A stretch of 64,000 bases of DNA. Source: a virus (lineage: Duplodnaviria; Caudoviricetes). The stretch covers positions 64,001 to 128,000 of the IMG/VR virus record IMGVR_UViG_2974655483_000001; one strand, written 5' to 3'. Below, piece after piece: positions 3 through 23,817 of the stretch. Every line of letters begins with the position of its first letter. The first letter of the stretch is position 1. Below the pieces are notes generated by a model that was not told where the DNA came from, ran no database searches, and worked only from the letters and a program-made list of their open reading frames with translations. The position numbers and the translations under genes were made by a program.

Positions 3-3000
3 CGTCAACAAGTTCTTACAACATCCTTTGGTGGTGCAGCAACAGCAAATGTTATTACATCGACTTTCCTTGAAGGTGAGCAAGTGTACCAGGGCAGTTC
101 CTTTGAAAACGCTACTGCATTTGGATTTGTCTCCACAAATAATGGTTGGCAAGTTGGACCTAGAATTGTAAAAATTGTCGATTACACTGGAGAGTTTAAC
201 ATTGGAGAAAGTGTAACAGGTGTTATCTCCAAATCTTCTGGTACTATTAGTTCCTTGAATATCGCTACGGGCGTTCTTGATGTTGGATCTATTACAGAAA
301 CCTCTGGTCAGTTTATTGATGATGTTGGCAAACCTTCGGAGATCATCCAAAAGATTCAAGACTCTTATTATTATCAGGACTTCTCTTATGCAGTTAAGTC
401 TGCTGTTTCAATTAATGATTGGAAGGATATTCTTATCAAGAATGTTCACCCTGCATCCTTCAAAGTTTTTGGAGAACTTAATCTAAATGAATATGGATTT
501 GTTCCTAATAAAGAAACATTCTTCCAATTAACAAAATCTGTTGAACTTGCAAGACAAGCAACTGTACCAAACATTCAAAGTTTTGCTTTGGTTGAACCTG
601 TATATACTGCGTTTGATAATACAGAGGTACTATTCCGTCAGAAGAGATTGACTTCTTCGGAGAACATCCTAACATCAGTTGTTCAAAGACTTGATGATAT
701 TTCAAATCTATTTGATGGTGAGAGAATTTCATTCCCACTACAAATTGATGGATCTAACGTTGTTGCCAACGCAAATCAACTGATGATTATTTTGAATGGT
801 GTTGTACAAACTCCAGATACATCATTTGAAGTTCAAAACGATTCTATTGTTTTTGCCGAACCACCTCAACCTCCTGCTAGTGTTAAGTATGTAAATGTCA
901 CTATTCAACCAATTCAGGTCTATAGGTTTACAGTTACTAATAATAGTGGTATTTTCCCAAGCACCAATAATACTGTTCTAGGAACACAATCTGGATCAAG
1001 ACTTACTGTTACTAGTGTTGTTGGTGATGATATCTTCGGTTTCGTTGCAGAAGGTAATGTTGGTATCGTTACGGCACTCGATAATGCCACATTAACTTCT
1101 GGTGCTGGTTATACTGATGGAACTTATACAGAGGTTGCTACTACTTCTAGTGGAGTTGGTACGGGACTTACTGTTAATATCACTGTTGCTGCTGGTGCTG
1201 TAACTCAAGTAAGTATCAATGGTGCTGGCGTTGGGTATGCTTCTTCTGAAGTTATTACAATCGCAGGTGGTACTACATCTGCAACTATTGCAGTCAGTAC
1301 TATTAGTGGATTTAATATTAACGAACTGATAAGTGTTGGTGCAACTGGATTTACAGCAACTCTCACACAAATTACTCCAATAGTTAATCTCAATCTGTTT
1401 AGTTTTAATGAGCAGATTAAAAACTTGACTGGTAAAATTGCTGTAGTTGAAGAGGTTAATCTAGAAACAGGAGATTCTGTTCCTCTTGCCGATTTAAGAT
1501 ACACTGTTGGTGCAGGAACGAGTTCTATTGAACTTATTGATAGTGATGCATTGACAGATACTGCAGTTCCAGCAAGTACCTTTACCGTAGGTGCTAACTA
1601 TCAGTTGGGAGCAGAGATTGTTACAGTTTCTGCTATTACAGTTGGACCTAATTCAACTACACTTACTGTAACAAGAGGGCAATTGGGAACAACTGCAACT
1701 TCCCACCAAGAAGACCTGCCTTTGTATGGTACTGACATTAGTGTTACTAATGAGTTGGCATTGAGTAAGACTGTAGGTACATATCAATCAAAACCTGGAC
1801 TATTCGATATTCAACTTGATGATGTTATTATTGGATCTCAATCGGGTGTTGTTGCTAGAATTACCTCAACATCTGCATACCAAGATCCCACCACAAATGA
1901 ATTTATTGAACAGGTTAATATTTCTGATGGATCGTCTTTCTTCGGTTTACTGTTCAACAGATTGACATCTGCTTCATATCCTAATATTATTCTTGATAAT
2001 ATTGCCGAGTCTCAAGTAAATATTGTTGATTTTACTGATAATACTACAAACTTTGATTCTAAATTCCCTGGAACTGAGTTTATCAGTAATTTAGTTATTC
2101 CTTATGACAATACTACAGGTACATTCCAAGAAAACGAGATTATTCGTAACTACAAACTTGGATATGGTAATGTAACGGGAGTTTTCAATTCTTCCGAGGA
2201 TATGGTTACTAAAAAACTTGCTTTTGATAGCAGAGTCGGGTCTGGATTCTTCCAACTCGGACAAGTTATTAGAACTCAAGATACTAAGGGAGAAGTTATT
2301 GGATACAATCAAGCACTCTCTACAATCTATCTTGGTAAAGTAGGTAGAACTCTTTCTACTGGTGAAGATTATCATAAGGTTACTTTCAATAATAATGCTC
2401 AATTAGATACCGATCAAAGTCATTATGGATTAAGTTCTTTGCTACTTGATGGTACTGGAGATTATCTGTCTATTCCAACTTCTACTGAATTTGGTTTTGG
2501 TACAGGTGCATTCACAATCGAATGTTGGATTCGTCCTTCTAGTGTTACAGGAACACAACAAATCTTCGATTTCAGAACGACTGCTGTTGAAGTTTCTTCC
2601 GAACTACTACTTGTAGGAACAAATCTTAACTATAGAGTTAATAACTCCACTACGATTACTGGAACAGCAACTCTTGCCGTAGATACTTGGTATCATGTTG
2701 CTATCTCAAGAAATGCTTCCACAACAAAGTTATTTGTTAATGGAACACAGGATGGTGGAGATTATTCCGATGGTAGTAACTACGGAACCACTAAACCAAT
2801 CATCATAGGTGCCTCCTATGCCTTTGGAGACGGTTTTGCTGGTCATATCGATGAGTTCAGAGTATCTAACACTTCGCGCTATCAGACGACATTTACTGCC
2901 CCTACAGGAATCTTCCAGGGTGATGCTAATACTAAGTTGCTGCTTCACTTTGAGGGTGACGATACTCAAACATATATTGAGGATTGGTCTGGTGGCGAGT

Positions 3001-6000
3001 CCTTTACAGACAACGAAGATTTCAACAATGATGCAATTCTCAAGAACTGGAATGAAAATTCTACAAACCTTCCTGCTGGATTTGCAGGTAAGTCGCAGCG
3101 ATATTATGATGCTGCTAACTTAATCGAATCCAATAAAAACTTCGTTGCTAAAGAAGCAGTTTACTTACTGACTCAACAGTATCCATCACTCATAATTCCT
3201 GGTGGTAATGTAAATTGTGAAGATGATATTCGTGATATCCTAACTGCTATGATTGAGGATCTCCGTAATGGATGTAATAGTCATATCTGGGATGCTTCGG
3301 CATTGTATGTTGATAGAACTGCTAATCCTATTACAATTAGTCATGTTGATACGGAAGTTACAGAAACTGTCTGGGCTTACGATAAAGTCAAAGATATTCT
3401 TCAATATATCATCAACAATACTCTTTGGTCTGTTTCTGGCAGTCATGGTGTAAGACAAATTACTGATACTACAATTACTGATTCTTCTACATCATCCTTT
3501 ACCACACTTCAACCATCAGCAATTTCATACAACGCTGCTACTGGTGATATGGTCATGACTTCAAATGGTCATGGATTAACAACATCCAATACAATCGCCA
3601 TTGCTGCAGAGTCATTGACATTCACCTGCACAAGTGATGGTAATGAAAGAGAATTGATTCATCCTCGTAAGAGTGATACTAGAGCATATAATCAAGTTCT
3701 TGCAATCACTGCAGCAGACACTAATACATTTACTGTAAATGTTGGTGCATCTCCAGCAGAGCAACAATATGTTCATACATTTGTAAGTGCAACTTCGGGT
3801 GCTGTTACAGTCCTTAATTACACTACAGGTGATTGTGCCGACGTATATTCTACGATTGGCAACCTTTTGGATATCCTCACAGATACACTTGAGCAAGCAA
3901 ATCTAGGCACTCCTGTAGACCACTTAGCAACTATTACTAAAGTAACTACTGAGTATGAGTTTGTTGGTGCTACTGTTAATGCATATCTTGAAGTTCCGTT
4001 TAGTACCACATATCATAGTGCTGCTTCGGATATCTTATACACCAATAGAATTGATGTTGCTGGTCGTGGAAGATTCCGTGATGCTTCAAATCTTATCAAT
4101 GCAAACGCATCAGTTATTGTTGATAAAGCAGCATTTGATATGCTTGCTAGATATCCAGATCTTGCTGTTGATATGCCTAGAAATGCTGATGGTAGTAGCA
4201 CTGATGGAACTCTTCGCTGTAAGACTGACTTAGGTTTAATCTTAGGAGCAATCGCGAAAGATATTTATGATGGAGGAAACTTCTTTACTGTCCAAGCTGC
4301 TAAGTTCTATATTGGTGAAAATGACGAACTCAGACATATCCGTTTGCAAGTATGGCAGTCTGTATATGCTCATGATAGACTTGCATACTATGCTAAGCAA
4401 GCAGTTACAGGTGATCTGACGTATGATAACACCGACAACATTATCGTTGGTGACTGGGGTGTTACTAATGACGCAGGAAACTGTGCAAATGTTCAATCTG
4501 CTATCGATACATTAGTTACTACCATCAATGATATTATTGCTCCAACTAGCGAAGACTTTAATATTGCTGGTGATAGATTATACTTCAACCGCGAATATAT
4601 TGCCGAAGAAATCACTGGTCTTACTGCAGCATATTTGACATATCAGGTTGATAACACAAATCAAGTAGCATATACATATGACGTTGCTAAGTGTGAGCGT
4701 GATATTAAGTTACTAATCACTGCAATTATCTCTGATCTACAAACAGGTGGTAATAATAGTACAGTTGATAATATGAACTTGTACTTAACTGCTAATGGAG
4801 AGCTCAATTATATAGAAGAAGAACTTCTTCCTACAGTATTTGCTTTTGAGCAGATTAGATCTCTTGGCGAAAAAGCAATAAGAAATCTTCTGTATGATTC
4901 AGGTTCAACTGTATCTGGTCAACAATATGCTGCTATTTTCAGTGATAATACTGCATATAGAGATAGTGAAACTCCTACAGATATTGATCAAGCAGTTTGG
5001 AGACTTCGTGATTTAGTTGATATTGTTACTAATGGTCTCGCACCAGCGGGCAATGCAGTTAGAAATGCTGCCAAGAACTTCTACTTCAACCTCAAGTATT
5101 ATAAGGATGAAATTGGAGCACAGATTGATAGTCAGTTTGGTGCTGGTTCTTGGGTATACGATTCATTCCTTGAAGAAACTGCAAATAATATTGCAACAGA
5201 CAGTATCACAACAGATACAAGTTCTTCAAATACGGTTGATGCTTATGAAATCTCACTTTCCAACATTATTGGAGACTTTACGGTAGGAGAGACAGTAACA
5301 TCCAGCAATGGTACTACTGCGACTGTGCTTGAGTTTGATAAGGATAATCAGTCAATGTATGTCGGTACTTTCTCATCTACTGCTTGGGCAGTTTCTAACA
5401 CACTGACAGGTGGAAGTAGTTCAGCAACTGCAACTATTGCGGAACCATATGGATCTGTAGTATTTGATGGGACTGGCGACTATTTACAAACTGCTGCGGG
5501 TATTTCACTTGGAACTGGAAACTTTACTATTGAAGGATGGATTCGTCGTACTGATACAACCAGTAACTTCTATATCTCTGGATCAACTAGTAATAACTTT
5601 GGTTTCTTTGTAGGAGCAGGTTCTTCTAGTATCGGTTTCTACGGTGGAAGTAGTGGTAACTTTGTCAATCTTACCAATACTTCTCTTACTATTTCTGGAG
5701 GTAGATGGTATCATGTTGCTGTCGTAAGAGAAGGAACAGGATCTAACCAAACTTCAATCTATATTGATGGCATTCTTCAAGGTAGTGGAACTATTGCAAC
5801 CAACTATGGTTCTACCACCTTTATTGTAGGTGCAAGCACTAACACCGCAGAATATGCCGATGGAAATATTTCGGACTGGAGATTATCTAGCGTTGCTGTT
5901 TATCCAAAAGGAACTACAGCAATTGGAGAGCAATTATTTGCACTTCCTACAAGACCATTTGTTGCTGCAGACGTTACTGAAACTGAACTTCTGTTGTGTC

Positions 6001-9000
6001 AAGGTGATACCATCCAAGATAACGGTCCTAATACTGTAGCAGTAACTGCTAACGGTGATGCTGCCGTATCTACAATATCACCCTTTGGATATTTCCCTGG
6101 TGTTTCTAACTCCTTTGATTGGTATGTCTATCCTACCAATGTGGAGATTCTTTCTCAAGCAAGAGCAATTAGTTCTCCTGTAACTGGAGAAGTTAGTAGC
6201 GCAAATCTCTGGACTAATCCAGAAAATCTAAATGCAACTAATTATACTTCTAACTTAGTCGCTTATTTCTCTAATGTCACAAGTGCTCCTGATGGAACAG
6301 AAACTGCCGAAAAACTTTATGCTACAGGTACTGGAGTACACTCACTAACTAGAGATTTTAATCTAACTTCGTTTGAAACTTTTGATAATTCAACAGTAAC
6401 ATTTGATAGTGGTACTGAAACATTTGATACTGGATTTGGTGGTATTAGTGAGCAGCAGACATTTACTTTGTCGGCATTCTTTAAGAAAGCAGAACTTGAT
6501 AGTCTCAACTTCAAACTTTCTTTGGATACTCAGTCGAAGAATGTTAACTTCAATGTCAACCTTTCCACAGGTCAGATTGATGCAGGAACATTATTTGTAA
6601 GTCCTGGTATTACTCTTAATGAATCTGGAGTTACTCCAGTTGGTAGTGATTGGTTCCGTGTATACGCAACAATTACCTTCGGTTTTGGTATTGATGATCT
6701 TCAAGCAGATTTTGCTATCTACAACCGTTCAGTTGTTGCTGCTTCAGGAAATCAAGGTTTCTATATCTGGGGTATTAAACTCAACTCTGGTTTCCTTGAT
6801 CCTTATACTGCTGGGTCTGGCAAGGTGTTCTATTCAAATACCGAATATAACATTAAGACATATGCGTTAGATCTTCTAACTGAGTATATGATTGCTTCAC
6901 TTTCTAATGAACTTGTCGTTCCTTCTCCTATTGCTGTTGTAGGTTCGTTCTACCAGGATCCAACATCTGCAAACGCTCTTTCTGACGGAAACTACAACAA
7001 CGAAACTATCAGTAGATTGATTCGTTATGGTACTAGTACGATTAAGAAACAGTTTATTAATGATGCTTACTATACAAACCTCATTCAATATAATGCTGTC
7101 AGTTTCGGTTCTAAAAACTATGGTGTTAGAGATATTCCTACAGGAATTACTGGAGGACTAAATGCCTCTGATTATTTCTATGGATTGAGTTCCGATTCAA
7201 ATGCTGAACTTGCTAATCTCACTACTAATGAAGGTCTGATTGTTAAAGTTTACAGGAGATTCCGCATAGACGGCGATATTACTGATGGTCCATTCACCAT
7301 GAATGAAACTGTCGCTAAGCAGGGTGCTCCTAGCATTACTGGTGTAGTTTACGGATTCTATGAGGACGAAAACTTCAAATATCTTGATGTTGAAGTTACT
7401 GCTGGTCCTTGGGCAGTTACAGACTTTATTGTTGGCGCGACTAACTCAACAACAGCACAAATTAGTGCCATCGAAGATCGTATTCATATCATCGATCTTA
7501 AAGGTAATTTTGTTGAGGATATCGAATTCCTTGGTTATACTTCTGGGGCAATTGCTCAACCTACTTCATTCCTTAAAACCGAGGCATCTGTTACTTCCAA
7601 TTCTGGAGGTCTTCTGACAGTTGATACTGAGAGCTTGGTAGGGACTTTTGAGAAAAACTCAGTAGTCTATCCAGAATCGTCTAGACAGTACATTGATGTG
7701 TCTCAAGTTGGTGGTCTTCAGATATCGGTTGGTGATCGTATCGCATCTGATGGATATATTAGATTAGGTATCTCAGTTATCTCAACTTCCAATACATTCA
7801 TTGTTGGAAATAGAATTTATAAGGTTGTTAACAATCTTCAAGATAACAGTGTATATGGTGTTATCACCGAAGTAGATCTTGATAACAACTACATCTACAT
7901 CACAATGATTCAAGGTGAATTCCAAAATGGTGATTATATTGGAGATTATGGTGTTGATATTTTCCCTCAAGGATTCGCGACAATTAGTACAAAGGTGACA
8001 ACTGCTGGTGCAGCAGCCGCTCGTGTTCAAGACATCAGAACAATAGGATTGTCTAAGAGACTCTATCTTACAGAGATTGCTGGAACATTCTCCAGTAAAG
8101 ATGCGATTATCGGAACTTCTGCATATAAGGCAGTTATCACCGATATTGTAGACCTTAAAGCTCGCGTTAAGAGATCGTCCAAAGGATTTGATGGTACACA
8201 AACTAACTTCTCTCTCACCATTGAAAATGGCACTCAATATCTGCCAGATCCCGAAGGTCACATGCTCATCTTCATTAATGGTATTCTTCAACCTCCTGGA
8301 GCAACTAACGCATACACAGCGTTCTCTGACCAAATTCAGTTCGCTGAGGCACCAGAACTTGGATCTTCGTTTACTGGATTCTATATTGGTAAGTTGAGGC
8401 AGTTGGATGATATCTCGTTCGAGTTTGATTCCTTACGCCAATCATTCAACCTTAAGCGTAATGAAGTGTTCTACTCACTCACGCTAACAGAAGGTGTCCA
8501 ATCTACTGTCATTAGACCTGAAAATAACATTATTGTTTCTCTCAATGGTGTTGTTCAGGAACCTGGAGTTGGTTTTGAGATTGTTGGTTCACGAATCATC
8601 TTCTCTGAAATTCCTCGCGTAGATTCCACATTCGTTGCGTTCTCTTATGTTGGTTCTGAAGCAGACGTTGATGCTGCTGAAGTAGTTCCACCAATCGAAG
8701 CAGGAGACTTCATCGAGATTGAAGGAGAGACTGTAGATCGTGAGGTGGCGGTTATTGAATCGTCAAACTCTCTCATCACATTCGATTACCTTGGATCTGT
8801 ATTTGGTCAAGGTGCCATCGGACAATCTGCACTCACAAGCGGATTTATTAGAAATGTTCAGGTCACTTCTGGAGGTTCTGGTTATACAAGCAGACCTACA
8901 GTTAGAATCGATTCTATCTCTGGTTTCGATGGTAACATCCGTGCATTGATTGGTATCTCTAGTGTTGAAATGAATACTTATGGTTCTGGATATCAAAATC

Positions 9001-9095
9001 CAGTCGTCGTTGTTGAGAGTGAAGTACCTGATGATTGGACCGCACCAAATCTCGCAAATTATGGTGAGGAATTAATTGATCCAGAGATCGCATAA
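3..9095 (+). CDS. Giant virion/baseplate structural protein (gp7 wedge-initiator-like), 5'-truncated; two LamG/ConA-like domains and three phycobiliprotein-like helical domains
   Basis: Frame is open from nt 3, so the GTG at 84 is not the true start. IQDSYYYQDFSY...HPA baseplate-wedge motif; position upstream of gp8; LamG-like segments at about 2433-2957 and 5451-6087 (DGTGDYL...FTIE.W...WYHVA). Confidence 0.75.
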   Translation, partial: RQQVLTTSFGGAATANVITSTFLEGEQVYQGSSFENATAFGFVSTNNGWQVGPRIVKIVDYTGEFNIGESVTGVISKSSGTISSLNIATGVLDVGSITETSGQFIDDVGKPSEIIQKIQDSYYYQDFSYAVKSAVSINDWKDILIKNVHPASFKVFGELNLNEYGFVPNKETFFQLTKSVELARQATVPNIQSFALVEPVYTAFDNTEVLFRQKRLTSSENILTSVVQRLDDISNLFDGERISFPLQIDGSNVVANANQLMIILNGVVQTPDTSFEVQNDSIVFAEPPQPPASVKYVNVTIQPIQVYRFTVTNNSGIFPSTNNTVLGTQSGSRLTVTSVVGDDIFGFVAEGNVGIVTALDNATLTSGAGYTDGTYTEVATTSSGVGTGLTVNITVAAGAVTQVSINGAGVGYASSEVITIAGGTTSATIAVSTISGFNINELISVGATGFTATLTQITPIVNLNLFSFNEQIKNLTGKIAVVEEVNLETGDSVPLADLRYTVGAGTSSIELIDSDALTDTAVPASTFTVGANYQLGAEIVTVSAITVGPNSTTLTVTRGQLGTTATSHQEDLPLYGTDISVTNELALSKTVGTYQSKPGLFDIQLDDVIIGSQSGVVARITSTSAYQDPTTNEFIEQVNISDGSSFFGLLFNRLTSASYPNIILDNIAESQVNIVDFTDNTTNFDSKFPGTEFISNLVIPYDNTTGTFQENEIIRNYKLGYGNVTGVFNSSEDMVTKKLAFDSRVGSGFFQLGQVIRTQDTKGEVIGYNQALSTIYLGKVGRTLSTGEDYHKVTFNNNAQLDTDQSHYGLSSLLLDGTGDYLSIPTSTEFGFGTGAFTIECWIRPSSVTGTQQIFDFRTTAVEVSSELLLVGTNLNYRVNNSTTITGTATLAVDTWYHVAISRNASTTKLFVNGTQDGGDYSDGSNYGTTKPIIIGASYAFGDGFAGHIDEFRVSNTSRYQTTFTAPTGIFQGDANTKLLLHFEGDDTQTYIEDWSGGESFTDNEDFNNDAILKNWNENSTNLPAGFAGKSQRYYDAANLIESNKNFVAKEAVYLLTQQYPSLIIPGGNVNCEDDIRDILTAMIEDLRNGCNSHIWDASALYVDRTANPITISHVDTEVTETVWAYDKVKDILQYIINNTLWSVSGSHGVRQITDTTITDSSTSSFTTLQPSAISYNAATGDMVMTSNGHGLTTSNTIAIAAESLTFTCTSDGNERELIHPRKSDTRAYNQVLAITAADTNTFTVNVGASPAEQQYVHTFVSATSGAVTVLNYTTGDCADVYSTIGNLLDILTDTLEQANLGTPVDHLATITKVTTEYEFVGATVNAYLEVPFSTTYHSAASDILYTNRIDVAGRGRFRDASNLINANASVIVDKAAFDMLARYPDLAVDMPRNADGSSTDGTLRCKTDLGLILGAIAKDIYDGGNFFTVQAAKFYIGENDELRHIRLQVWQSVYAHDRLAYYAKQAVTGDLTYDNTDNIIVGDWGVTNDAGNCANVQSAIDTLVTTINDIIAPTSEDFNIAGDRLYFNREYIAEEITGLTAAYLTYQVDNTNQVAYTYDVAKCERDIKLLITAIISDLQTGGNNSTVDNMNLYLTANGELNYIEEELLPTVFAFEQIRSLGEKAIRNLLYDSGSTVSGQQYAAIFSDNTAYRDSETPTDIDQAVWRLRDLVDIVTNGLAPAGNAVRNAAKNFYFNLKYYKDEIGAQIDSQFGAGSWVYDSFLEETANNIATDSITTDTSSSNTVDAYEISLSNIIGDFTVGETVTSSNGTTATVLEFDKDNQSMYVGTFSSTAWAVSNTLTGGSSSATATIAEPYGSVVFDGTGDYLQTAAGISLGTGNFTIEGWIRRTDTTSNFYISGSTSNNFGFFVGAGSSSIGFYGGSSGNFVNLTNTSLTISGGRWYHVAVVREGTGSNQTSIYIDGILQGSGTIATNYGSTTFIVGASTNTAEYADGNISDWRLSSVAVYPKGTTAIGEQLFALPTRPFVAADVTETELLLCQGDTIQDNGPNTVAVTANGDAAVSTISPFGYFPGVSNSFDWYVYPTNVEILSQARAISSPVTGEVSSANLWTNPENLNATNYTSNLVAYFSNVTSAPDGTETAEKLYATGTGVHSLTRDFNLTSFETFDNSTVTFDSGTETFDTGFGGISEQQTFTLSAFFKKAELDSLNFKLSLDTQSKNVNFNVNLSTGQIDAGTLFVSPGITLNESGVTPVGSDWFRVYATITFGFGIDDLQADFAIYNRSVVAASGNQGFYIWGIKLNSGFLDPYTAGSGKVFYSNTEYNIKTYALDLLTEYMIASLSNELVVPSPIAVVGSFYQDPTSANALSDGNYNNETISRLIRYGTSTIKKQFINDAYYTNLIQYNAVSFGSKNYGVRDIPTGITGGLNASDYFYGLSSDSNAELANLTTNEGLIVKVYRRFRIDGDITDGPFTMNETVAKQGAPSITGVVYGFYEDENFKYLDVEVTAGPWAVTDFIVGATNSTTAQISAIEDRIHIIDLKGNFVEDIEFLGYTSGAIAQPTSFLKTEASVTSNSGGLLTVDTESLVGTFEKNSVVYPESSRQYIDVSQVGGLQISVGDRIASDGYIRLGISVISTSNTFIVGNRIYKVVNNLQDNSVYGVITEVDLDNNYIYITMIQGEFQNGDYIGDYGVDIFPQGFATISTKVTTAGAAAARVQDIRTIGLSKRLYLTEIAGTFSSKDAIIGTSAYKAVITDIVDLKARVKRSSKGFDGTQTNFSLTIENGTQYLPDPEGHMLIFINGILQPPGATNAYTAFSDQIQFAEAPELGSSFTGFYIGKLRQLDDISFEFDSLRQSFNLKRNEVFYSLTLTEGVQSTVIRPENNIIVSLNGVVQEPGVGFEIVGSRIIFSEIPRVDSTFVAFSYVGSEADVDAAEVVPPIEAGDFIEIEGETVDREVAVIESSNSLITFDYLGSVFGQGAIGQSALTSGFIRNVQVTSGGSGYTSRPTVRIDSISGFDGNIRALIGISSVEMNTYGSGYQNPVVVVESEVPDDWTAPNLANYGEELIDPEIA

Positions 9096-9117: not shown

Positions 9118-10338
9118 ATGGCTAAACAAGCACTAAACCTTGGAGCTTCTGCTAATGATAATACGGGGGACACCCTCCGTATTGGTGGTGATAAAATCAA
9201 TGATAATTTTAACGAACTATATACCGCTTTAGGTAATGGAGTAAGTTTAACTGTTAATACATTGAACCCCGTATCGGGACAAGTTCTTCGTTATAATGGA
9301 TCTACTTTTCTGCCTTCAGATTATAGTAATCTTACATCTGCTTTGGATGTAAACGGAAACTCAATTATTTCCTCTAGTGATGGGAATATTCCTGTTGCTG
9401 CAAATGGCACTGGTGTTATTACATTAGCATCCAATTCAGTCACTTCGACATTTGGTGCTACTGTTGACATTCCTACAAGTGTAAAGTATAAAAACGAATA
9501 TGCATCTTTAGGTGTTGCTCCTGCTGCAGCATCTTATCCTGGTTATTTCTTTACTGTAGATGGTGTTGATGACCCATATGTAAATATTAATATCACTGCT
9601 GATGGTGTTGGTGATGTTAGAGCGAAACTTCTCACCGAATATTCAAGTATTGATACTTTAAGTAATGTTGATGTTACAACAACAGCACCAACAGCAAATC
9701 AAGTTCTTAAGTGGGATGGTTCTAACTGGGTTCCTGGAGATGACCAAGCAGGTGTAAGTGCCATTAATGTTTTCCAGACTGTCACTGCAGATTCTGGAAC
9801 TACTACAGCAAATAGTCAAGCAGACACTCTTACTATTGCTGGTGGTACTAATATTACTACAGCAGTTTCTGGTGATACCGTAACTGTAAACTTTAGTGGT
9901 ACTCTTACTACTACTCTGGCAGCATTAACTGATACTGATACTGCTGGTCTTACCCAGGGCGATATGCTCTATTGGAATGGTTCTAATTGGATTCCAACTC
10001 GCAGTCCAATGCTTTGGTATGAAATTGGAGCACCTCCAGGAAATAATTCCAATTACTATACAATAGCAGGACCTGGATCACCTATCTCTGTTCAAAATCC
10101 TACTATCTATGTTCATAGAGGATTCACATATGCCTTTGATAATAGTGTAGAAGGCGGTGGTCATCCTTTTAGAATTCAATCTACTCAAGGACTGACAGGC
10201 ACTCCATATACCGATGGACAGAGTGGAAGTATAACCAATGTTCTTTATTGGACAATTCCAATGAATGCACCTAATACATTGTATTATCAGTGTACTCTAC
10301 ATTCGTTGATGCAAGGCACCTTTACCGTCGTAAACTGA
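9118..10338 (+). CDS. Baseplate/fibre-associated structural protein with gp9/gp10-like N-terminus and C-terminal cupredoxin-like domain
   Basis: N-terminal MAKQALNLGASANDNTGDTLRIGGDKINDNFNELY motif; repeated QVLKWDGSNW fibre motifs; C-terminal HPF...YYQCTLHSLM. Confidence 0.75.
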   Translation: MAKQALNLGASANDNTGDTLRIGGDKINDNFNELYTALGNGVSLTVNTLNPVSGQVLRYNGSTFLPSDYSNLTSALDVNGNSIISSSDGNIPVAANGTGVITLASNSVTSTFGATVDIPTSVKYKNEYASLGVAPAAASYPGYFFTVDGVDDPYVNINITADGVGDVRAKLLTEYSSIDTLSNVDVTTTAPTANQVLKWDGSNWVPGDDQAGVSAINVFQTVTADSGTTTANSQADTLTIAGGTNITTAVSGDTVTVNFSGTLTTTLAALTDTDTAGLTQGDMLYWNGSNWIPTRSPMLWYEIGAPPGNNSNYYTIAGPGSPISVQNPTIYVHRGFTYAFDNSVEGGGHPFRIQSTQGLTGTPYTDGQSGSITNVLYWTIPMNAPNTLYYQCTLHSLMQGTFTVVN

Positions 10339-10341
10339 TAA

Positions 10342-13300
10342 ATGGCAAGAACAGTACCTGGATCAGGAGCGCAGATTAAACCGATCTTCGATGAAGTTTT
10401 TGGTGTTCGCTCTGTAGAATTAATTAGTGGTGGAACTGGATACGATCCTGCCGACCCTCCAAGATTGACAATCGATGGTTGTGGCACTCCTGCTCAAGAA
10501 GCATTGCTATATCCAATTATTGATGAAGATTCGGGAAGAATTGTTCATGTTCGTGTTCTTCAAAGAGGTAGGGGTTATGATCCCTTAAGACTTAAGATTG
10601 TTCCTACATCTGAAACACCAAATGTTTTAGATTCTTTTGATATCAATAGAATCTGGCAAAATCATCCAAATTCCTTGACAAGAGGAACCTTCCAGACTTC
10701 TGGTACACCTGCTGTTAAAACTGATAGACTTCGTATTGAGTCTGACAATCATCCTAAACCTACTTGGATATTAGCAGAGGCGCAACCTGGAGGTTCTGGA
10801 AATATTGTAGATAGATCTTTTGATCAAGTTTTTGTATATCGTGGTGGTAAAGATGTTCCTTATGTAGGAACTAGAAGTTTTCAAAACAATAAATCTTTAG
10901 GAATTCTGGCAAACGGTGGTTTATTGCATACTCCAGAATGGGGTACTTTTGGAAATGCACCAACAAACTTTTCTATTGATACTGTAAAATATGACTATGT
11001 TAAAGATACTGATGCTAATGATGTAATTGTTGACAGTACAACGCATTATTATCAGACCAGTAAAGTAATTAATGAATTTGATAATCCTAATGGTGTATTT
11101 CAGTGGGGAGCGCAAGAACAGTTTGTTTGGAATATCAAGGTAGAGTTTGATAATATCATGCTTTACGTTGATAACGTAGATGAAACTTTAAATCCGATTG
11201 AAGTTGGTAGAACGATAAACGAGGTGGGGGGAATCGCTTCTGGAGAGATCGCAAAAATTGTCCGAAATGATCAAGACCAGATTATTAGAATTTATTTAAG
11301 AGATGTTGTAGGGACATTTGAAACAACTGATTTTATCTTAGGATCTACTGGATTTACATTTAGAATCAATGGTGACCCAGTTCTATTCCCTAATGGTCTC
11401 TTCTATATTGATTTTGGCGTTGATGCTCAGGAGTTTGGTTCATTTACTCCTGGAAAATATTACCTTGCTCCAGAAAGTATCAAGGTCCAAAGAAACTATC
11501 TGATTATTTGGAATCAATCTGATGCCACAAATCAACCAAGTGCTTTACATGCTCAAGGACATCCAATGCAGTTTAGTACTACCCAGGATGGGGCTCTAAA
11601 CAACGGCACTCTATATTATAGTAGTACAGGTGCATCTGCTGCCCCTGCTTCTGATTATGAGAATGAGTTTAACCCATTGTTCATAATGAATGCGGATGAA
11701 ACTAATCGCATTTACTATTATTGCAAAGTCCATCGCTACATGTCTGGATATGAAGGCGATGAAGGATACATGTATCTCGATCCCGAAATTGAGGAAGAGG
11801 AAGAAGAGAACATAAACACCTACTATGTCGAAGACTTTTTCGGCACAGAGGTAGCAGGAACGAAAGATTTATCTAGACATGTAGACGGTCACTCAAAAGT
11901 TCTTGGTATGTCCTTTGATGGATATCCTATTTACGGACCATTTGGATATGTTACTGGTAGAACTGTCGGTAGAATGACGAGTTCTTTTAGATTAAAAACT
12001 ACTGAAGAACTTTCTGGTACTAGAGAAGAAGTTGTAACTGCAAGTACAATAACTTATACTGTTACTGTTTCAAATTCTAAATTTTATTTTGATGGGCAAG
12101 AAGAACAGTTACTGAATCTTAAAAGAGGAAAAACTTATATCTTCAATCAAGATGATGCTAGCAACACTGGTGATGGCAACTTCTTGATGTTCTCTTTGAC
12201 AGAAGATGGTTGGCATAGTACAGGAAGTTCGCTTAATATTGGAACAACTTCATATCTATATGATGCTGAAGGTTTAGTTGAATATTATTTGGATGGAGTT
12301 TTAACACCATACGCAACATATTTGGGTGGATTTGCTGCTGCGACGACAAGAGAAGTTCGTATCACTATTCCTGTAAATTCACCTCGGGTTGCTTATGCTT
12401 TTTCATATTCAAATCCTGGTTATGGAATTCGTCTTGTTAATGAAGGATACATTCTTGGTGATTTAACTCAGGATTATATCTACGATGCTTCTGTAGGTAT
12501 TCTTGATCAATATAATGGTAAGTATGTTGTTACCCCAGAATATCCGAATGGTACTTATGCATATTTCATGACAGAGGATGGTAGTGGGAATCCAGTTTAT
12601 CCATATGCGATTGGTCCCCAGTACTATGGAACACCTATATTTGAAGGCGATGCTGTTCCCGATCAAGTATCAGTCTTCCCCATTGAAGCAGAAGGTGATA
12701 TTGTCCTTAATACTGATGGGACCGTATCATATATTAAGATGACTAAAAACGGTGATAACTTCTTTGGTGCGGCAAAGGCAGTTATTCTTGGAGGTGAAGG
12801 AACTGGTGCTTTGGCAACTCCTGTTACTCAAACTATTACTGGTTTATCACTGTTAAATGAAGGTAGAAGTTATGCAACACCACCAAACCTTATTTTTGAA
12901 GGTGGTGGTGGACAAGGTGCTGAGGGTGCAGCATCAATTGATACTCTTGGCAAAGTTACGTCGATTAATATTGTTGATGGTGGTGAATTCTATCAGACAG
13001 AACCCTATATTCTTCTGACTGGTGGTGGTGGACTTGGTGCAAAGGCAGAAGCAGTTATTAATCAAGGTGCTATTACTGGTATTAGTATTACTGATCCTGG
13101 CAAAGGATATACCTCTGCACCAAATGTTGTCTTCACCAGACTTGTAAATCTTAAGCGTAAAACAAGAGCTCGTCAGGCATTCAACTCTTCTGATATTTAC
13201 TTAACAGGTCTCACTAAATCACTCGGGTCTAGTGATACTACAGTTTATGTTTCTTCTACAGATGCATATCCAGGATCTGGTTCTCTTATAGTTAATAGGG

Positions 13301-14556
13301 AAACTATTTCATATACTGCTAAGAGTAGGGGTAGATTTACTGGAATTACTAGAGGCGTCAATTTTAAATATGACCAAAGAGTTATATTGGATGATGGACA
13401 AAATGATGCTGATGGAAATTCTAACTATCAGTTTAGTGTTGGTGATAGGGTAATTCGTAGGGTTGAGAGTGCTAATAACAAGATTGCTAAAGTATATGAT
13501 TGGGATCCTAGCACTAGAGAACTTCTAGTTGTATTTGAAGTTGATGAACTTGCATTTATTGATGGTGGTATTCCTTCAACAACTGATGCTATTGTTCAGT
13601 TTGATGCTGGTGTTGCAAATAGTAGTGGAACAGGTGTTCTTCCGCATACAATTATTGCTGCAGTTGGTAGCAGTATATCTACATTAACCGTACCTATTGC
13701 AACAATTGTAGATAGTGCGTTTGAGGATAATGATGAGAATGAAGATCCTTTAAATCCAGGAACATTTTTGGGAGATGGTATTGCAGATTTGATTAACACT
13801 GCTACAGATTATGCAAGTCAGATCAGTCTAGATGGTGGCATATATAATTCATTGTATGGTATTGAAGAGACTCAAGGTGGTCAAAATACTACATTACTTC
13901 AAGTTGGAGATAATATCAAAGACGCAGATATACCTTTCAAATTTGCCACAATTACTTCTGCAGGTGGATTGAGTGATGGCGTCGAACATCCTGTTCTTCT
14001 AACACTTACTTTAGACTCTTCTAATGGTAATGGTCAAAATTATAGTACAAATGAAATTGTAACTGGTGCTATCTCTGGTATTCAAGGAACGGTAGTATCT
14101 TGGGATACTACTACATCAAAATTAGTATTGAAGGATATTGTTCCTTTTAATACAAATAATGTCAATATTGGTGTAAATGGATATCTATATGAGTTCTCAA
14201 GTAACAGTACAGTTGTTGATGTAGTTGTTGTAAATAACGGAACAAACTACACTGCAGTTCCAAGTATTGTTATTGAAAGTACGGGTGATATTCAAGCAAC
14301 TGGTACTGTTGTTATGTCAACATCTGGTGACCGAGTAGATTCTATAACTATTACAAATGGAGGTTATGGAATTCCTCAAACAGTTGACAATAGTTATAAT
14401 CTACACCCTACAATCACATTTACAAATGCAGGTGGTGATTCGACAGGTTCTGGTGCAGCGGCTCAGGCAGTTTTGGGTGGAGAAAATGTGACTGGTAATG
14501 CTGGAGCGAGTTATCGTATCAAATCTATTGAATACTCTACATTAGTTCGTTCGTAA
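10342..14556 (+). CDS. Virion structural protein with YHYH-like domain and cupredoxin-like module
   Basis: [17 protein letters not shown] and [22 protein letters not shown] motifs; HPM...[10 protein letters not shown]; GxGY beta repeats; structural-module context. Confidence 0.7.
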
Positions 14557-14595: not shown

Positions 14596-16128
14596 ATGGC
14601 AGCTCTATTAACTGATCAATTTAGGATTTTCTCAGCGAGAAAGTTCATTAAGGCATTGGAAGGACCCGATGCCACTCAGAGTGATGATGTAGCAGGTACT
14701 ACGAGAGATCGTTTGTATCTGTTCATTGGTCGTCCTCAAACTTGGGATAATGAAAATTCTCCTCCCCAAGCAATAGATTCCTTTCAGGAATTTTCTAGTT
14801 CTTATGATGACATGATCTCTTTGAAGCGTGTCCTCGCTTCAGATACGGTTCAGGTTGTTCGTCGTATTGATTGGGTTTCTCCAGAGCAAACTACAGGTGG
14901 ACTTGGTTTCACCTATGATATGTATCGTCATGATTACTCTCCTAGTAAGACTGCTTCCTCTGGTGCTACCAAACTGTATGATTCAGATTTTTATGTTGTA
15001 AACTCACAATATCAAGTTTACAAGGTAATCTATAACGGAACATCTCCTTCGGATCCCAACGGCAAACCCTCTACAGTTGAACCTACAGGTTCCTCTACTA
15101 GTATTATTACTACAGGTGATGGGTATCGTTGGAAGTACATGTATACAATTCCTGTCGCCTCGGTTCTTAAGTTTTTCTCTAATGATTATATGCCCGTCTT
15201 TACAAATGACGCGGTAAGAACCAATGCTGTTTCTGGAGAGATTGATACTGTAGTTATTAGTTCTGCAGGTTCTGGATACAATAATGGCACATACGATAAT
15301 GTTGCTATTAACGGTGATGGTACTGGTGGTAGAGTTTCTATTGTTATTGATGGCGGCAGAATTATTTCTGCTACTGTAACCTCTGGTGGTACTGGATATA
15401 CATTTGGTAAAATCAGTATTGATTCTATTACTGGTATTGGTACTGGTGCTAGTGGTATTGTTGATGTTATCATGCCTCCTCCTGGTGGTCATGGTTCTGA
15501 CTCTGTTGTAGAACTTGGTGCATTCCGAGTTATGGTTAACGCTAAACTTTCTTATGATGAAGGTGCTGGTGATTTCCCGATCGATAACGACTACCGTCGT
15601 ATTGGTCTTGTTACCAATCCTCTGAAGTTTGGTACTGAAGAACTCATTTCGGATTTGACAGTTTCTGCTGCTAAAGCAGTTATCTTCTCTCCTACATTCC
15701 AAGGCAACTATGTTCCTGATGAAATTATTACTCAAACAAGAGTTGTTGGTGGTACAAGCATCACCGCTCGTGGTAGAGTAGTTTCATGGAATCCTACTAC
15801 TAAAGTATTGAAGTACTATCAGAACTCAATTGATGGTATTTTCCCTGAAGTTACAGGCACGCAAAATGAACTTGACGGGTCTAATGTTATCAGTGGGGCA
15901 ACTTCTGGTGCTGCTGGGCAACCAGATGTAAACTTCCCTGCTGTTCCCAACTCATCTTCCCGAACAATTAATAATACGGAATATGATTTGGGTATGAAAT
16001 TTAATAATGGTTATGCGAAACCCGAAATCAAATCAAACAGCGGTAATGTTGTTTACATAGATAATAGACGAGCAATCAGTCGTGCAAACGACCAGGTAGA
16101 AGACATCAAAATCGTAATCGAATTCTAA
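14596..16128 (+). CDS. gp8: Baseplate wedge subunit gp8
   Basis: YLFIGRPQTW, DGYRWKYMYTI and C-terminal IDNRRAISRANDQVEDIKIVIEF motifs typical of T4-like gp8. Confidence 0.9.
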   Translation: MAALLTDQFRIFSARKFIKALEGPDATQSDDVAGTTRDRLYLFIGRPQTWDNENSPPQAIDSFQEFSSSYDDMISLKRVLASDTVQVVRRIDWVSPEQTTGGLGFTYDMYRHDYSPSKTASSGATKLYDSDFYVVNSQYQVYKVIYNGTSPSDPNGKPSTVEPTGSSTSIITTGDGYRWKYMYTIPVASVLKFFSNDYMPVFTNDAVRTNAVSGEIDTVVISSAGSGYNNGTYDNVAINGDGTGGRVSIVIDGGRIISATVTSGGTGYTFGKISIDSITGIGTGASGIVDVIMPPPGGHGSDSVVELGAFRVMVNAKLSYDEGAGDFPIDNDYRRIGLVTNPLKFGTEELISDLTVSAAKAVIFSPTFQGNYVPDEIITQTRVVGGTSITARGRVVSWNPTTKVLKYYQNSIDGIFPEVTGTQNELDGSNVISGATSGAAGQPDVNFPAVPNSSSRTINNTEYDLGMKFNNGYAKPEIKSNSGNVVYIDNRRAISRANDQVEDIKIVIEF

Positions 16129-23336: not shown

Positions 23337-23572
23337 TGTCACACATTCCTGTAAAAAATAAAGATAATTGGTACAGAAACTCGGAAACGGGTTCTGTACT
23401 GTGTTCTGATTCTGATACATATCAGAAATATATGACTGCGTATAAAGCAGATAAACAGAAAGAGGAGGACTTTACCACTTTACAAAATGAAGTTTCTGAG
23501 TTAAAATCGGATCTAGGTGATATCAAATCACTTTTACTAACGTTAGTCCAAAGTAAAGAGAACAAATTATGA
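23336..23572 (+). CDS. Small conserved hypothetical protein with C-terminal coiled coil
   Basis: 78-aa ORF translationally coupled to the upstream gene (TAATG). Confidence 0.7.
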   Translation: MSHIPVKNKDNWYRNSETGSVLCSDSDTYQKYMTAYKADKQKEEDFTTLQNEVSELKSDLGDIKSLLLTLVQSKENKL

Positions 23573-23787: not shown

Positions 23788-23794
23788 TAGGATT

Positions 23795-23817
23795 AGGGGC
23801 AGAAATGCCCCTTTTCT
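23795..23817 (+). terminator. Rho-independent terminator
   Basis: AGGGGCA-GAAA-TGCCCCT hairpin followed by a T-rich tail. Confidence 0.8.

What the first reader, a model, noticed from the sequence alone, without database searches (positions are those of the whole stretch)
3099..5043. Three tandem phycobiliprotein-like (globin-core) domains with bilin-attachment cysteines inside the giant baseplate protein
Seen: three helical repeats, each with C-x-x-D (Cys codons at 3216, 4218, 4692). Manual alignment to C-phycocyanin beta as I recall it ([34 protein letters not shown]...ACLRDMEIIL...G...QKMKD...I.N...TPGDCSALMSEI...D) gives the following. Repeat 1, DAANLIESNKNFVAKEAVYLLTQQYPSLIIPGGN, matches ungapped at 15/34 positions including PGGN (the methyl-Asn72 site), then CEDDIRDIL, DKVKD...IINN and TTGDCADVYSTI...D (second Cys at 3834, beta-153-like). 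Repeat 2, DASNLINANASVIVDKAAFDMLARYPDL, matches 14/28, then CKTDL and AGNCANVQSAI (Cys at 4482). Repeat 3, KCERDI-x10-LQTGG, has the spacing of alpha-subunit KCARDI-x10-LxxGG. The N-terminal oligomerisation helices are absent. Known background: Cys82/84 and beta-Cys153 bind bilins and the following Asp contacts the pyrrole nitrogens; many cyanomyoviruses encode bilin enzymes (Ho1, PcyA/PebS) and a CpeT-like lyase; light-dependent adsorption is reported for some cyanomyoviruses. None of those bilin genes is in this window. Inference: the virion baseplate may be a phage-encoded biliprotein acting as a light sensor for adsorption or tail triggering, in photoprotection, or as a phycobilisome mimic, and could be a substrate of phage lyases. 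I know of no prior description but cannot check the literature.
Basis: partly seen in the sequence, partly recalled or inferred. Interest (0 to 1): 0.93.

Follow-up and report, generated by a model that had tools for sequence, protein, structure and literature searches.

The report
Phycobiliprotein-fold domains in cyanophage baseplate protein
A giant tail/baseplate protein of a marine cyanobacterial virus contains three domains that are true relatives of its host's light-harvesting pigment proteins and keep the pigment-attachment cysteine, so it can now be tested whether the virus particle carries pigment and senses light; pigment binding itself has not been shown.

Summary
Window 3096-5042 encodes three mutually homologous helical domains inside a 6,376-aa virion protein of an S-RIM12/Syn33-like cyanomyovirus. 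AlphaFold models match phycobiliprotein beta subunits (Z 18.7 and 15.1; all top hits). A profile of 80 copies hits only phycobiliproteins in the PDB (E 1e-5) and places the conserved Cys exactly on alpha-Cys84 of the C-x-R-D bilin site.

Across 791 copies in 117 phage proteins, Cys is kept in 96%, Arg in 80% and Asp in 98%. 87% of cores have a single Cys. Copies that lose Cys also lose Arg.

Among isolates the domain occurs only in cyanophages. In 16 reference cyanomyoviruses it co-occurs perfectly with the lyase-like gene cpeT (13/13 against 0/3). In three genera cpeT lies just upstream of a domain-bearing fibre gene.

Phages reported not to adsorb in the dark (P-HM1, P-HM2, S-PM2) carry the domain. 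Dark-adsorbers (P-SSM2, P-SSP7, P-GSP1) lack it.

Homology is secure. Chromophore attachment and light sensing are inferred, not shown. Here only repeat 3 has the full C-x-R-D.

This scan has noted the same thing on several other genomes. I found no published description.

The parts
3..9095 (+). C-terminal 3,030 aa of a 6,376-aa virion structural / baseplate-wedge-type protein. The ORF starts outside the window, at G000 53965.
   Evidence: ORF list, six-frame ORF in the genome. PHROG 701 'virion structural protein' and PHROG 2885 'baseplate wedge subunit'. Pfam Baseplate_wedge PF23786 at 27.3 bits in the N-terminal half. RefSeq annotation of the 99.8% identical S-RIM12 record.
2448..2879 (+). 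Laminin_G_3 (concanavalin-A-like lectin) domain just upstream of the repeats.
   Evidence: Pfam PF13385, E 9.8e-40, residues 816-959.
3096..3413 (+). Repeat 1, helices A, B, E, F and G of a phycobiliprotein fold. Cys1072 (nt 3216-3218) sits in C-E-D-D, preceded by P-G-G-N.
   Evidence: AF2 model m51932fa4d239. VIA Z 15.1, rmsd 2.7 A over 150 residues to phycoerythrin beta 7ap5. PF00502 match to profile positions 25-68. Cys invariant in 20 orthologues.
3414..3824 (+). Beta-rich insertion of about 135 aa in the G-H loop of repeat 1. It contains the nearly invariant Cys1209.
   Evidence: DSSP strands at model residues 143-247. The structural alignment spans model 1-273 against chain 2-184, so the fold closes after the insert. 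Orthologue alignment.
3825..3896 (+). Repeat 1 helix H. The second conserved Cys1278 (nt 3834-3836) sits in D-C-A-D-V at its N-terminus.
   Evidence: Model helix 251-274. Cys invariant in 20 orthologues. The H-helix module has this Cys in 110 of 132 copies.
4056..4541 (+). Repeat 2, a complete A-B-E-F-G-H phycobiliprotein fold. Cys1406 (nt 4218-4220) is in C-K-T-D; the second Cys1494 (nt 4482-4484) is in N-C-A-N-V.
   Evidence: AF2 model m5881d17d240d, pLDDT 84.7. Foldseek top ~50 hits are all phycobiliprotein beta chains. VIA Z 18.7, rmsd 2.7 A over 158 residues. The orthologue profile aligns the Cys on the bilin Cys of smURFP. Conservation 42/43 and 39/43.
4551..5042 (+). Repeat 3, same helix order plus a beta hairpin. 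Cys1564 (nt 4692-4694) is in the canonical K-C-E-R-D, followed by L-Q-T-G-G-N. There is no second Cys.
   Evidence: Secondary structure of model residues 172-334. phmmer E about 1e-10 to repeats 1 and 2. The family profile aligns C-x-R-D and G-G ungapped on phycocyanin alpha Cys84/Arg86/Asp87/Gly102-103. This repeat had no structural match of its own listed.
9118..10338 (+). Baseplate wedge / tail-fibre connector gene immediately downstream.
   Evidence: PHROG 677, E 3.8e-198.
10342..14556 (+). Baseplate wedge subunit gene (1,404 aa).
   Evidence: PHROG 708, full length.
14596..16128 (+). Baseplate wedge subunit gene (510 aa).
   Evidence: PHROG 438, E 1e-232.

Best explanation
The three repeats are phycobiliprotein-fold (globin-like) domains embedded in a giant baseplate-wedge/fibre protein of a T4-like cyanophage.

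Shown: they share fold and ancestry with light-harvesting phycobiliproteins. They lack the X/Y oligomerisation helices. They keep the attachment Cys and the pyrrole-contacting Asp at the canonical site, and repeat 3 also keeps the Arg.

Inferred: during late infection the protein folds in a cytoplasm rich in host bilins. One bilin is attached by thioether to the C-x-(R)-D cysteine of each domain, and possibly a second to the D-C-x-D-V cysteine of repeats 1 and 2. Attachment would be either autocatalytic, as reported for BBAG globins (PMC10151467), or helped by the phage's own CpeT-like protein (G000 13641-14096, outside the window).

The released virion would then carry a few bilins on its distal tail apparatus. 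The most likely use is to couple light to the conformation of the fibre or baseplate, and so to adsorption. A purely stabilising cofactor role is the fallback.
For: Fold:
- VIA Z 18.7 (158 aa, 2.7 A) and Z 15.1 (150 aa, 2.7 A). Every one of the top 50 entries is a phycobiliprotein (Foldseek).

Sequence:
- PF00502 scores above its cut-off on the three-repeat segment.
- 15 of 80 copies hit PF00502 singly.
- The family profile against the PDB reaches E 1.3e-5, and the top 60 are all phycobiliproteins. Cys, Arg, Asp and Gly-Gly are aligned ungapped on the alpha-84 site.

Selection on the site, over 791 copies:
- C 96%, R 80%, D 98%; the triad is C-x-R-D in 636 copies.
- Of the 25 copies without Cys, none keeps Arg and only 12 keep Asp.
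- In repeat-3 orthologues, the 17 of 43 without Cys have lost Arg and Asp too.
- 686 of 791 cores contain exactly one Cys, so there is no intradomain disulfide partner.

Distribution:
- 350 matching records among 50,697 isolate phages; 349 are named Synechococcus, Prochlorococcus or cyanophage and 1 'Marine'.

Link to the lyase-like gene:
- This genome has cpeT.
- In 16 reference cyanomyoviruses, 13/13 with the domain have a CpeT-like ORF and 0/3 without it do.
- In S-PM2, Syn1 and S-RSM4, cpeT lies about 0.7-1.5 kb upstream, on the same strand, of a giant domain-bearing fibre gene.
- One metagenomic locus has heme oxygenase and CpeT genes about 5 kb upstream.

Phenotype:
- P-HM1 and P-HM2 do not adsorb in the dark. 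S-PM2 adsorption is light-dependent and independent of host photosynthesis (PMC6628666). All three carry the domain.
- P-SSM2, P-SSP7 and P-GSP1 adsorb in the dark and have no match even at E <= 1.
Against: - No chromophore has been observed, and nothing here can show one.
- In this phage the Arg is replaced in repeats 1 and 2 (C-E-D-D, C-K-T-D).
- Many orthologues have lost the whole triad in repeat 3, so a complete C-x-R-D is not required for the protein to work.
- The family has its own strongly conserved positions that phycobiliproteins lack (Asp at +14, Asn at +20, a Tyr, a Thr). These could mark a different, non-bilin function.
- This genome has no heme oxygenase or bilin reductase. Across genomes those genes do not track the domain: P-SSM2 and S-SSM7 have both but lack the domain.
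- The co-occurrence and phenotype tables are small and not corrected for phylogeny. P-HM1 and P-HM2 are near-identical, and two of the dark-adsorbers are podoviruses.
- P-SSM2 adsorption is still enhanced by light although it lacks the domain.
- From my own knowledge, coloured cyanophage preparations have not been reported.
Confidence: 0.5

Rival explanations
1. The domains are apo-protein modules. A phycobiliprotein-derived helical bundle was recruited as a rigid spacer or receptor-binding scaffold in tail proteins and binds no bilin. The conserved Cys, Arg and Asp serve folding, an inter-domain or inter-subunit disulfide in the oxidising sea, or a metal or other ligand.
For: - Arg is replaced in 20% of copies, including two of the three here.
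- The whole triad is dispensable in repeat 3 of many orthologues.
- The family has its own conserved residues that phycobiliproteins lack.
- Minimal units of 108 aa are too short to hold helix H.
- The domains sit among lectin-like and beta-rich adhesin-type domains.
- There are no bilin synthesis genes in this genome.
Against: - A scaffold role does not explain 96-98% retention of exactly the two residues that bind bilin in relatives, at about 25% overall identity, nor their joint loss.
- Most cores have one lone Cys.
- It does not explain the perfect co-occurrence with cpeT or the cpeT-fibre gene adjacency.
Confidence: 0.35
2. The domains bind a non-bilin ligand, or use the Cys for another covalent chemistry (for example a different tetrapyrrole, or a thioester-type attachment to the host surface). 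Only the fold is inherited from phycobiliproteins.
For: A lone, highly conserved Cys in an extracellular protein. Family-specific conserved polar residues near the motif.
Against: No conserved His for heme among the conserved columns. The retained Asp and Arg are the bilin-specific contacts, aligned ungapped to the alpha-84 site. The link to cpeT points to bilins.
Confidence: 0.08
3. The domains mimic host phycobiliproteins in order to engage host factors such as phycobilisome linkers, NblA or lyases, inside the cell.
For: Homology to host antenna proteins.
Against: The protein is a virion tail component, by annotation and synteny, and acts outside the cell. The X/Y helices needed for alpha-beta and trimer assembly are absent. 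The domains are buried in a 6,376-aa multidomain protein.
Confidence: 0.04
4. The resemblance is chance or convergence of an unrelated helical bundle.
For: Single-sequence E-values are weak (0.007 for repeat 1 against the PDB). Helical bundles can give Z up to about 13-14 by chance, according to the tool's own note.
Against: Z 18.7 over a whole domain. All top hits come from one family in three independent searches. Pfam scores above its curated cut-off. The functional motif aligns ungapped.
Confidence: 0.02

Closest known systems
Light-harvesting phycobiliprotein subunits (Pfam PF00502: CpcA/B, CpeA/B, ApcA/B)
   Same: Globin-like A-B-E-F-G-H fold (Z 15-19). The attachment Cys lies in C-x-R-D on helix E, aligned ungapped to alpha-Cys84. 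A second Cys sits at the G-H loop/helix H junction in repeats 1 and 2, where beta subunits carry Cys153/155. Repeat 1 has a P-G-G-N loop motif, as in beta subunits.
   Different: No X/Y helices, so no alpha-beta monomer or trimer assembly is expected. The domains are not stand-alone 160-180-aa proteins but are embedded in a 6,376-aa virion protein, up to 37 copies per protein in relatives. Repeat 1 has a 135-aa beta insertion in the G-H loop. Arg is replaced in repeats 1 and 2. Sequence identity is 15-24%. No chromophore has been demonstrated.
BBAGs, bilin biosynthesis-associated globins of heterotrophic bacteria and some cyanobacteria (Rockwell et al. 2023, PMC10151467)
   Same: Phycobiliprotein paralogues outside the antenna. 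Some have C-x-R-D. They were shown to bind bilins without lyases, and their function is unknown. They are the best functional analogy for self-attachment.
   Different: BBAGs are small cellular proteins clustered with HO and FDBR genes. The phage domains are parts of tail proteins, and in this genome no HO or FDBR is present. The phylogenetic position relative to BBAGs was not determined here.
smURFP and other engineered allophycocyanin-alpha-derived fluorescent proteins
   Same: A phycobiliprotein core without X/Y helices that attaches bilin autocatalytically (function from my own knowledge). The repeat-2 orthologue profile has smURFP as its best PDB sequence hit, with the Cys aligned (E 1.5e-4).
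   Different: These are engineered, stand-alone dimeric proteins.
Phage CpeT (T-type phycobiliprotein lyase homologue; Gasper et al. 2017, reference seen in PMC10452541, paper itself not held)
   Same: The only bilin-handling gene in this genome. T-type lyases serve the beta-Cys153/155 site (PMC10452541), the site that the second Cys of repeats 1 and 2 resembles topologically.
   Different: It is a possible partner enzyme, not a relative of the domain.

Membership tests
Phycobiliprotein superfamily (PF00502, globin-like clan) | Globin-like helical fold with helices A, B, E, F, G, H | tested here: met
   AF2 models with pLDDT 84.7 and 77.8. VIA Z 18.7 (158 aa, 2.7 A) for repeat 2 and Z 15.1 (150 aa, 2.7 A) for repeat 1. 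All top 50 entries are phycobiliproteins. Repeat 3 is inferred from its helix order and its homology to repeats 1 and 2.
Phycobiliprotein superfamily (PF00502, globin-like clan) | Significant profile similarity to the family | tested here: met
   PF00502 scores 27.9 bits against a cut-off of 22.2 on residues 1023-1700. 15 of 80 copies hit singly, best E 5.7e-7. Family profile against PDB: E 1.3e-5, top 60 all phycobiliproteins. The match covers mainly helices A/B to E.
Phycobiliprotein superfamily (PF00502, globin-like clan) | Attachment Cys82/84 within C-x-R-D | tested here: met
   Repeat 3 has C-E-R-D, aligned ungapped on alpha-Cys84/Arg86/Asp87. Repeats 1 and 2 keep Cys and Asp but not Arg (C-E-D-D, C-K-T-D). 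Family-wide: 636 of 791 copies are C-x-R-D.
Light-harvesting phycobiliproteins proper | N-terminal X and Y helices that form the alpha-beta monomer and (alpha-beta)3 discs | tested here: not met
   Structural alignments start at chain residue about 30. The domain begins with helix A directly after a linker.
Light-harvesting phycobiliproteins proper | Stand-alone subunit of about 160-185 aa encoded in antenna operons | tested here: not met
   The domains lie within a 6,376-aa ORF. Only 12 hits of 58-228 aa were found, mostly on short contigs. The top 150 representatives are 844-6,982 aa.
Light-harvesting phycobiliproteins proper | Covalently bound bilin | not testable with these tools
   Needs expression, spectroscopy or mass spectrometry.
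Beta-type phycobiliprotein | Second attachment Cys (beta-153/155) in the G-H loop | tested here: inconclusive
   A conserved Cys sits at the N-cap of helix H in repeats 1 and 2. It is invariant in 20 orthologues, present in 39 of 43, and present in 110 of 132 H-helix modules. Equivalence to beta-153 is only topological; no residue-level structural alignment was available.
BBAG (bilin biosynthesis-associated globin) | Gene neighbourhood with heme oxygenase and ferredoxin-dependent bilin reductase | tested here: not met
   No PF01126 or PF05996 match in the whole 174,670-bp genome. Across 16 genomes those genes do not track the domain.
T4-type baseplate wedge protein (host protein of the domains) | Similarity to baseplate wedge families and position in the baseplate gene block | tested here: met
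   Pfam PF23786 Baseplate_wedge at 27.3 bits (cut-off 27) in the N-terminal half. PHROG 2885, E 9e-145. Three baseplate wedge genes lie directly downstream. Presence in virions rests on database annotation only.

The most novel reading that the evidence does not exclude
Most marine T4-like cyanophages build virions whose baseplate or fibres carry covalently bound bilins on phycobiliprotein-derived domains. The bilins are loaded with the help of the phage's own CpeT, and they act as a virion-borne photoreceptor that gates adsorption. This would explain both the long-unexplained phage cpeT gene and light-dependent adsorption.
Probability: 0.25. Interest if true: 0.97.

Novelty: new variant of a known kind. 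Interest (0 to 1): 0.86.

Why it matters
Two open questions in cyanophage biology become directly testable.

First, why do cyanomyoviruses carry cpeT and bilin genes? This holds even for those infecting Prochlorococcus, which lacks standard phycobilisomes; the benefit is called 'unclear' in PMC2984593.

Second, what makes adsorption of some cyanomyoviruses light-dependent yet independent of host photosynthesis? [quoted passage not shown]

A virion structural protein that is itself a bilin-binding globin would give both questions a concrete molecular candidate. As far as I know it would be the first pigment-bearing, light-sensing virus particle.

Even if the domains turn out to be apo-proteins, they are a new, large branch of the phycobiliprotein/BBAG superfamily. 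It comprises about 1,700 clusters at 50% identity, with up to 37 copies per protein, and bears on how that fold evolved and spread.

Tried and rejected
Thirteen IMG/VR contigs of that family (23-45% complete) held no HO, FDBR, CpeT or psbA. They are fragments, so this is uninformative. The long ENA contigs could not be searched.
- An alignment-based locus search with the ten L084 copies failed for lack of a conserved stretch. A single copy was used instead.
- Phylogenetic placement relative to phycobiliproteins and BBAGs was not attempted. No cellular sequences were at hand by reference, and about 100 aligned columns at 15-20% identity would resolve little.
- A residue-level check of the bilin pocket and of the distance between the two Cys of repeats 1 and 2 was not possible, because model coordinates are not given. 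Three orthologues keep the first Cys without the second, so the two are not an obligate pair.
- '8u0f Bacterial fluorescent protein' among the structural hits is R-phycoerythrin from a T-cell-receptor study, not a new bacterial family.
- Literature searches for any description of phycobiliprotein-like domains in phage virion proteins found none. Subscription journals are largely not covered. Gasper et al. 2017 on phage CpeT is not held.
- BFVD structural neighbours are cyanophage 'structural', 'tail' or 'tail fiber' proteins, and none is named as phycobiliprotein-like.
Full report
WHAT IS THERE

The window is bases 64001-128000 of a 174,670-bp cyanomyovirus genome. It is 99.8% identical over the finding to Cyanophage S-RIM12 and 99.1% to Syn33. 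The finding lies in a single ORF that runs off the 5' end of the window (window 3-9095). In the whole genome this ORF is 6,376 aa. RefSeq calls it 'virion structural protein'.

Three baseplate wedge genes lie directly downstream (PHROGs 677, 708, 438). The N-terminal half, outside the window, has a marginal Pfam Baseplate_wedge match (27.3 bits, cut-off 27) and a YHYH domain, and matches PHROG 2885 'baseplate wedge subunit'. A Laminin_G_3 lectin-like domain precedes the repeats. That the protein sits in the baseplate or fibre apparatus therefore rests on synteny, family names and annotation, not on an experiment seen here.

CHECK OF THE OBSERVATION

The three repeats are homologous to one another (E 1e-8 to 1e-10).

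- Pfam PF00502 (Phycobilisome) matches the three-repeat segment at 27.9 bits, E 2.6e-6, cut-off 22.2.
- A plain phmmer of the segment against all PDB sequences returns phycobiliprotein chains in 24 of its 26 rows.
- In that ungapped alignment the repeat-1 Cys falls at position 75, not 82. It reaches the canonical position only when the shorter B-E loop is allowed for.

THE DOMAIN FAMILY

An HMM iterated from the three repeats finds 791 copies in 117 related giant proteins, 1 to 19 per protein. The minimal spacing is 108 aa. This genome has only the three copies.

Against 1.84 billion representative proteins, a profile of 80 diverse copies (A3) finds 1,671 proteins at E <= 0.001. The best have up to 37 matched stretches, and the top 150 are 844-6,982 aa long. 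Stand-alone forms are essentially absent: 12 hits of 58-228 aa, mostly on short contigs.

Column statistics over the 791 copies give a core consensus of K-C-x-R-D-x-G, with C at 96%, R at 80% and D at 98%. A further Asp is at 92%, a G-G-N follows, then a Tyr at 95% and a Thr at 80%.

HOMOLOGY TO PHYCOBILIPROTEINS

- Sequence. The A3 profile searched against PDB sequences gives only phycobiliproteins in its top 60, best phycocyanin alpha at E 1.3e-5. The alignment is ungapped from the Cys through the G-G. It puts the family's Cys, Arg and Asp on alpha-Cys84, Arg86 and Asp87.
- Sequence, single copies. Fifteen of the 80 copies hit PF00502 individually, and only one copy matched any other family, weakly (Linker_histone, E 0.006).
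- Sequence, repeat 2. The repeat-2 orthologue profile hits smURFP, with the Cys aligned.
- Structure, repeats 2+3. The AlphaFold model of residues 1346-1700 (43 orthologues, pLDDT 84.7) has phycobiliprotein beta chains in all top ~50 Foldseek rows. VIA-align gives Z 18.7, rmsd 2.7 A over 158 residues for repeat 2. The listed matches cover only repeat 2 (model residues 1-168).
- Structure, repeat 1. The model of residues 1025-1345 (pLDDT 77.8) gives Z 15.1 over 150 residues. The alignment runs across a beta-rich insertion of about 135 aa in the G-H loop and closes with helix H after it.
- Missing helices.
- '8u0f Bacterial fluorescent protein' in these lists is simply R-phycoerythrin.

Homology at the superfamily level is, in my judgement, secure.

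IS THE BILIN SITE UNDER SELECTION AS A SITE?

Four observations bear on this.

1. At about 25% pairwise identity between copies, Cys and Asp are nearly invariant. All ten copies within one divergent protein (L084, 18-36% identical to one another) keep Y, C, R, D, D and Y.
2. The residues are lost together. Of 25 copies without Cys, none keeps Arg (83% do among Cys-bearing copies), and only 12 keep Asp against 764 of 766. Among 43 orthologues of repeat 3, 26 have C-x-R-D, and the 17 without Cys have lost Arg and Asp as well. These counts are not phylogenetically independent.
3. 686 of 791 cores have exactly one Cys. The conserved Cys therefore has no intradomain disulfide partner, which is unusual for an extracellular protein.
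4. Repeats 1 and 2 have a second Cys at the N-cap of helix H, in [DN]-C-x-[DN]-V. It is invariant in 20 repeat-1 orthologues and present in 39 of 43 repeat-2 orthologues and in 110 of 132 such helix modules. Topologically this is where beta subunits carry Cys153/155. I could not verify residue equivalence.

Against these points: in this phage Arg is replaced by Asp in repeat 1 and by Thr in repeat 2. The loss of the whole triad in many repeat-3 orthologues shows that a complete site is dispensable there.

DISTRIBUTION AND GENOMIC LINKS

- tblastn of repeat 3 against 50,697 isolate phage genomes finds 350 records. Of these, 349 are named Synechococcus, Prochlorococcus or cyanophage and 1 'Marine'.
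- This genome encodes a CpeT-like protein (G000 13641-14096). It has no heme oxygenase and no ferredoxin-dependent bilin reductase, so any bilin would have to come from the Synechococcus host.
- In 16 reference cyanomyovirus genomes, the A3 profile matches 13 and misses P-SSM2, S-SSM7 and S-SM2.
- CpeT is found in 11 of the 13 at E <= 0.001. In the other two (P-SSM7, S-ShM2) it appears as divergent ORFs of 145 and 149 aa whose summed scores pass the Pfam cut-off. In the three domain-less genomes there is no match even at E <= 5.
- That is 13/13 against 0/3. From these counts I calculate a one-sided Fisher p of 1/560, about 0.002; this figure is my own arithmetic, not a tool output, and it has no phylogenetic correction.
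- HO and FDBR do not follow the domain. P-SSM2 and S-SSM7 have both.
- In S-PM2, Syn1 and S-RSM4 (three genera), cpeT lies about 0.7-1.5 kb upstream, on the same strand, of a giant 'short tail fiber protein' that carries the domains, followed by gp12.
- A metagenomic 12-copy protein has heme oxygenase and CpeT genes about 5 kb upstream.
- In the present phage, cpeT is about 40 kb from the giant gene.

LINK TO A PHENOTYPE (FROM THE LITERATURE)

Liu et al. 2019 (PMC6628666) report the following:
- P-HM2 and P-HM1 do not adsorb in the dark.
- P-SSM2 adsorbs in the dark, though less than in light.
- The podoviruses P-SSP7 and P-GSP1 adsorb in the dark.
- Citing Jia et al. 2010, light-dependent adsorption of S-PM2 does not depend on host photosynthesis. 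[quoted passage not shown]

In my searches P-HM1, P-HM2 and S-PM2 have 6, 6 and 13 domain matches. P-SSM2, P-SSP7 and P-GSP1 have none at E <= 1. This is a three-against-three split. It is suggestive only: the phages are related in pairs, the sample is tiny, and light still enhances P-SSM2 adsorption.

MOST LIKELY MECHANISM

Shown: these are phycobiliprotein-fold domains with the attachment Cys/Asp (and Arg in repeat 3), in a tail-apparatus protein of a phage that also encodes a T-type lyase homologue.

Inferred:
- Bilin from the host pool is attached in the infected cell, autocatalytically as in BBAGs (PMC10151467) or with CpeT.
- The virion then carries bilins.
- Light absorbed by them influences fibre or baseplate conformation and adsorption.

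My odds are about 0.95 for homology, about 0.5 for bilin attachment in virions, and about 0.25 for a light-gating role.

The main rival is an apo scaffold that kept the motif for other reasons (0.35). Mimicry of phycobilisome parts is unlikely for an extracellular part that lacks the assembly helices. Chance resemblance is excluded for practical purposes.

COMPARISON WITH WHAT IS KNOWN

The domains belong to the phycobiliprotein/BBAG globin superfamily. They fail two defining features of light-harvesting phycobiliproteins proper: they lack the X/Y helices, and they are not stand-alone subunits that assemble into discs. They also fail the gene-neighbourhood criterion of BBAGs. They are best described as a new, phage-borne branch of the superfamily in a new structural context.

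I found no paper describing this. BFVD/UniProt names for the structural neighbours are only 'structural protein', 'tail protein' or 'tail fiber'. Reviews still give the role of phage cpeT and bilin genes as unclear or as support of host antennae.

EARLIER NOTES OF THIS SCAN

Several first-stage and follow-up notes on other genomes describe the same kind of domains and reach the same partial verdict. Two of them state that the domains occur only with cpeT. I tested that here on 16 genomes and it held.

One note states that an uncultured 11-copy fibre family sits in phages with HO and FDBR. I could not confirm or refute that, because the contigs I could search are fragments.

- the joint-loss pattern of the triad;
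- the lone-Cys statistic;
- the cpeT-fibre gene adjacency in three genera;
- the match to published dark-adsorption phenotypes.

Noticed in passing
L183 (S-PM2 163952-177267), L184 (Syn1 19938-33236), L185 (S-RSM4 162121-177047): A conserved gene string lies next to the baseplate hub genes: small ORF (T4-GC 730), cpeT, tRNAs or small ORFs, giant domain-bearing 'short tail fiber protein', gp12. S-PM2 and Syn1 also have a 2OG-Fe(II) oxygenase (T4-GC 104) between cpeT and the fibre gene; S-RSM4 has an HNH endonuclease there instead. The oxygenase next to the fibre gene might modify it.
   Followed up: partly
window 3414-3824: The G-H loop of repeat 1 holds a beta-rich domain of about 135 aa with its own nearly invariant Cys1209 (nt 3627) and a recurring Q-Y-x-H-T-F-V-S motif. 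In some orthologues (L054-L060) copies of that motif replace helices A/B of repeat 1.
   Followed up: partly
L083 12-11438; P0136 (6,382 aa): Uncultured relatives carry head-to-tail arrays of a 108-aa minimal unit, apparently without helix H. There are 19 copies in a 3,808-aa protein and up to 37 matched stretches in a 6,382-aa protein. Each core has exactly one Cys.
   Followed up: partly
L084 and L166 (uncultured 11-copy fibre family): The 11-copy proteins sit in a tail-fibre block with DUF4815 and Peptidase_S74 genes (a GP38 gene too in L084). Thirteen related IMG/VR fragments (51-100 kb) have no psbA, CpeT, HO or FDBR in the part held. These phages may not be cyanophages, but the host is unresolved.
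   Followed up: partly
16 reference genomes: Among the 16 reference cyanomyoviruses, FDBR genes were found in six Prochlorococcus-host phages and in one Synechococcus phage (S-SSM7). HO was found only in P-SSM2, P-HM1, P-HM2 and S-SSM7. Neither tracks the phycobiliprotein-like domain.
   Followed up: yes
G000 53965-64002 (L193), upstream of the window: The N-terminal half of the giant protein has a YHYH domain (PF14240, E 2.4e-31) and a marginal Baseplate_wedge match. The window part has two Laminin_G_3 stretches. The protein is a mosaic of adhesin-type modules.
   Followed up: partly
L183 (NC_006820 165928-177267): The RefSeq record of S-PM2 lists 16 tRNA features inside the coordinates of the giant fibre CDS, and the CDS bears a tRNA-style locus tag (S-PM2t009). 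This looks like an annotation or coordinate artefact.
   Followed up: no
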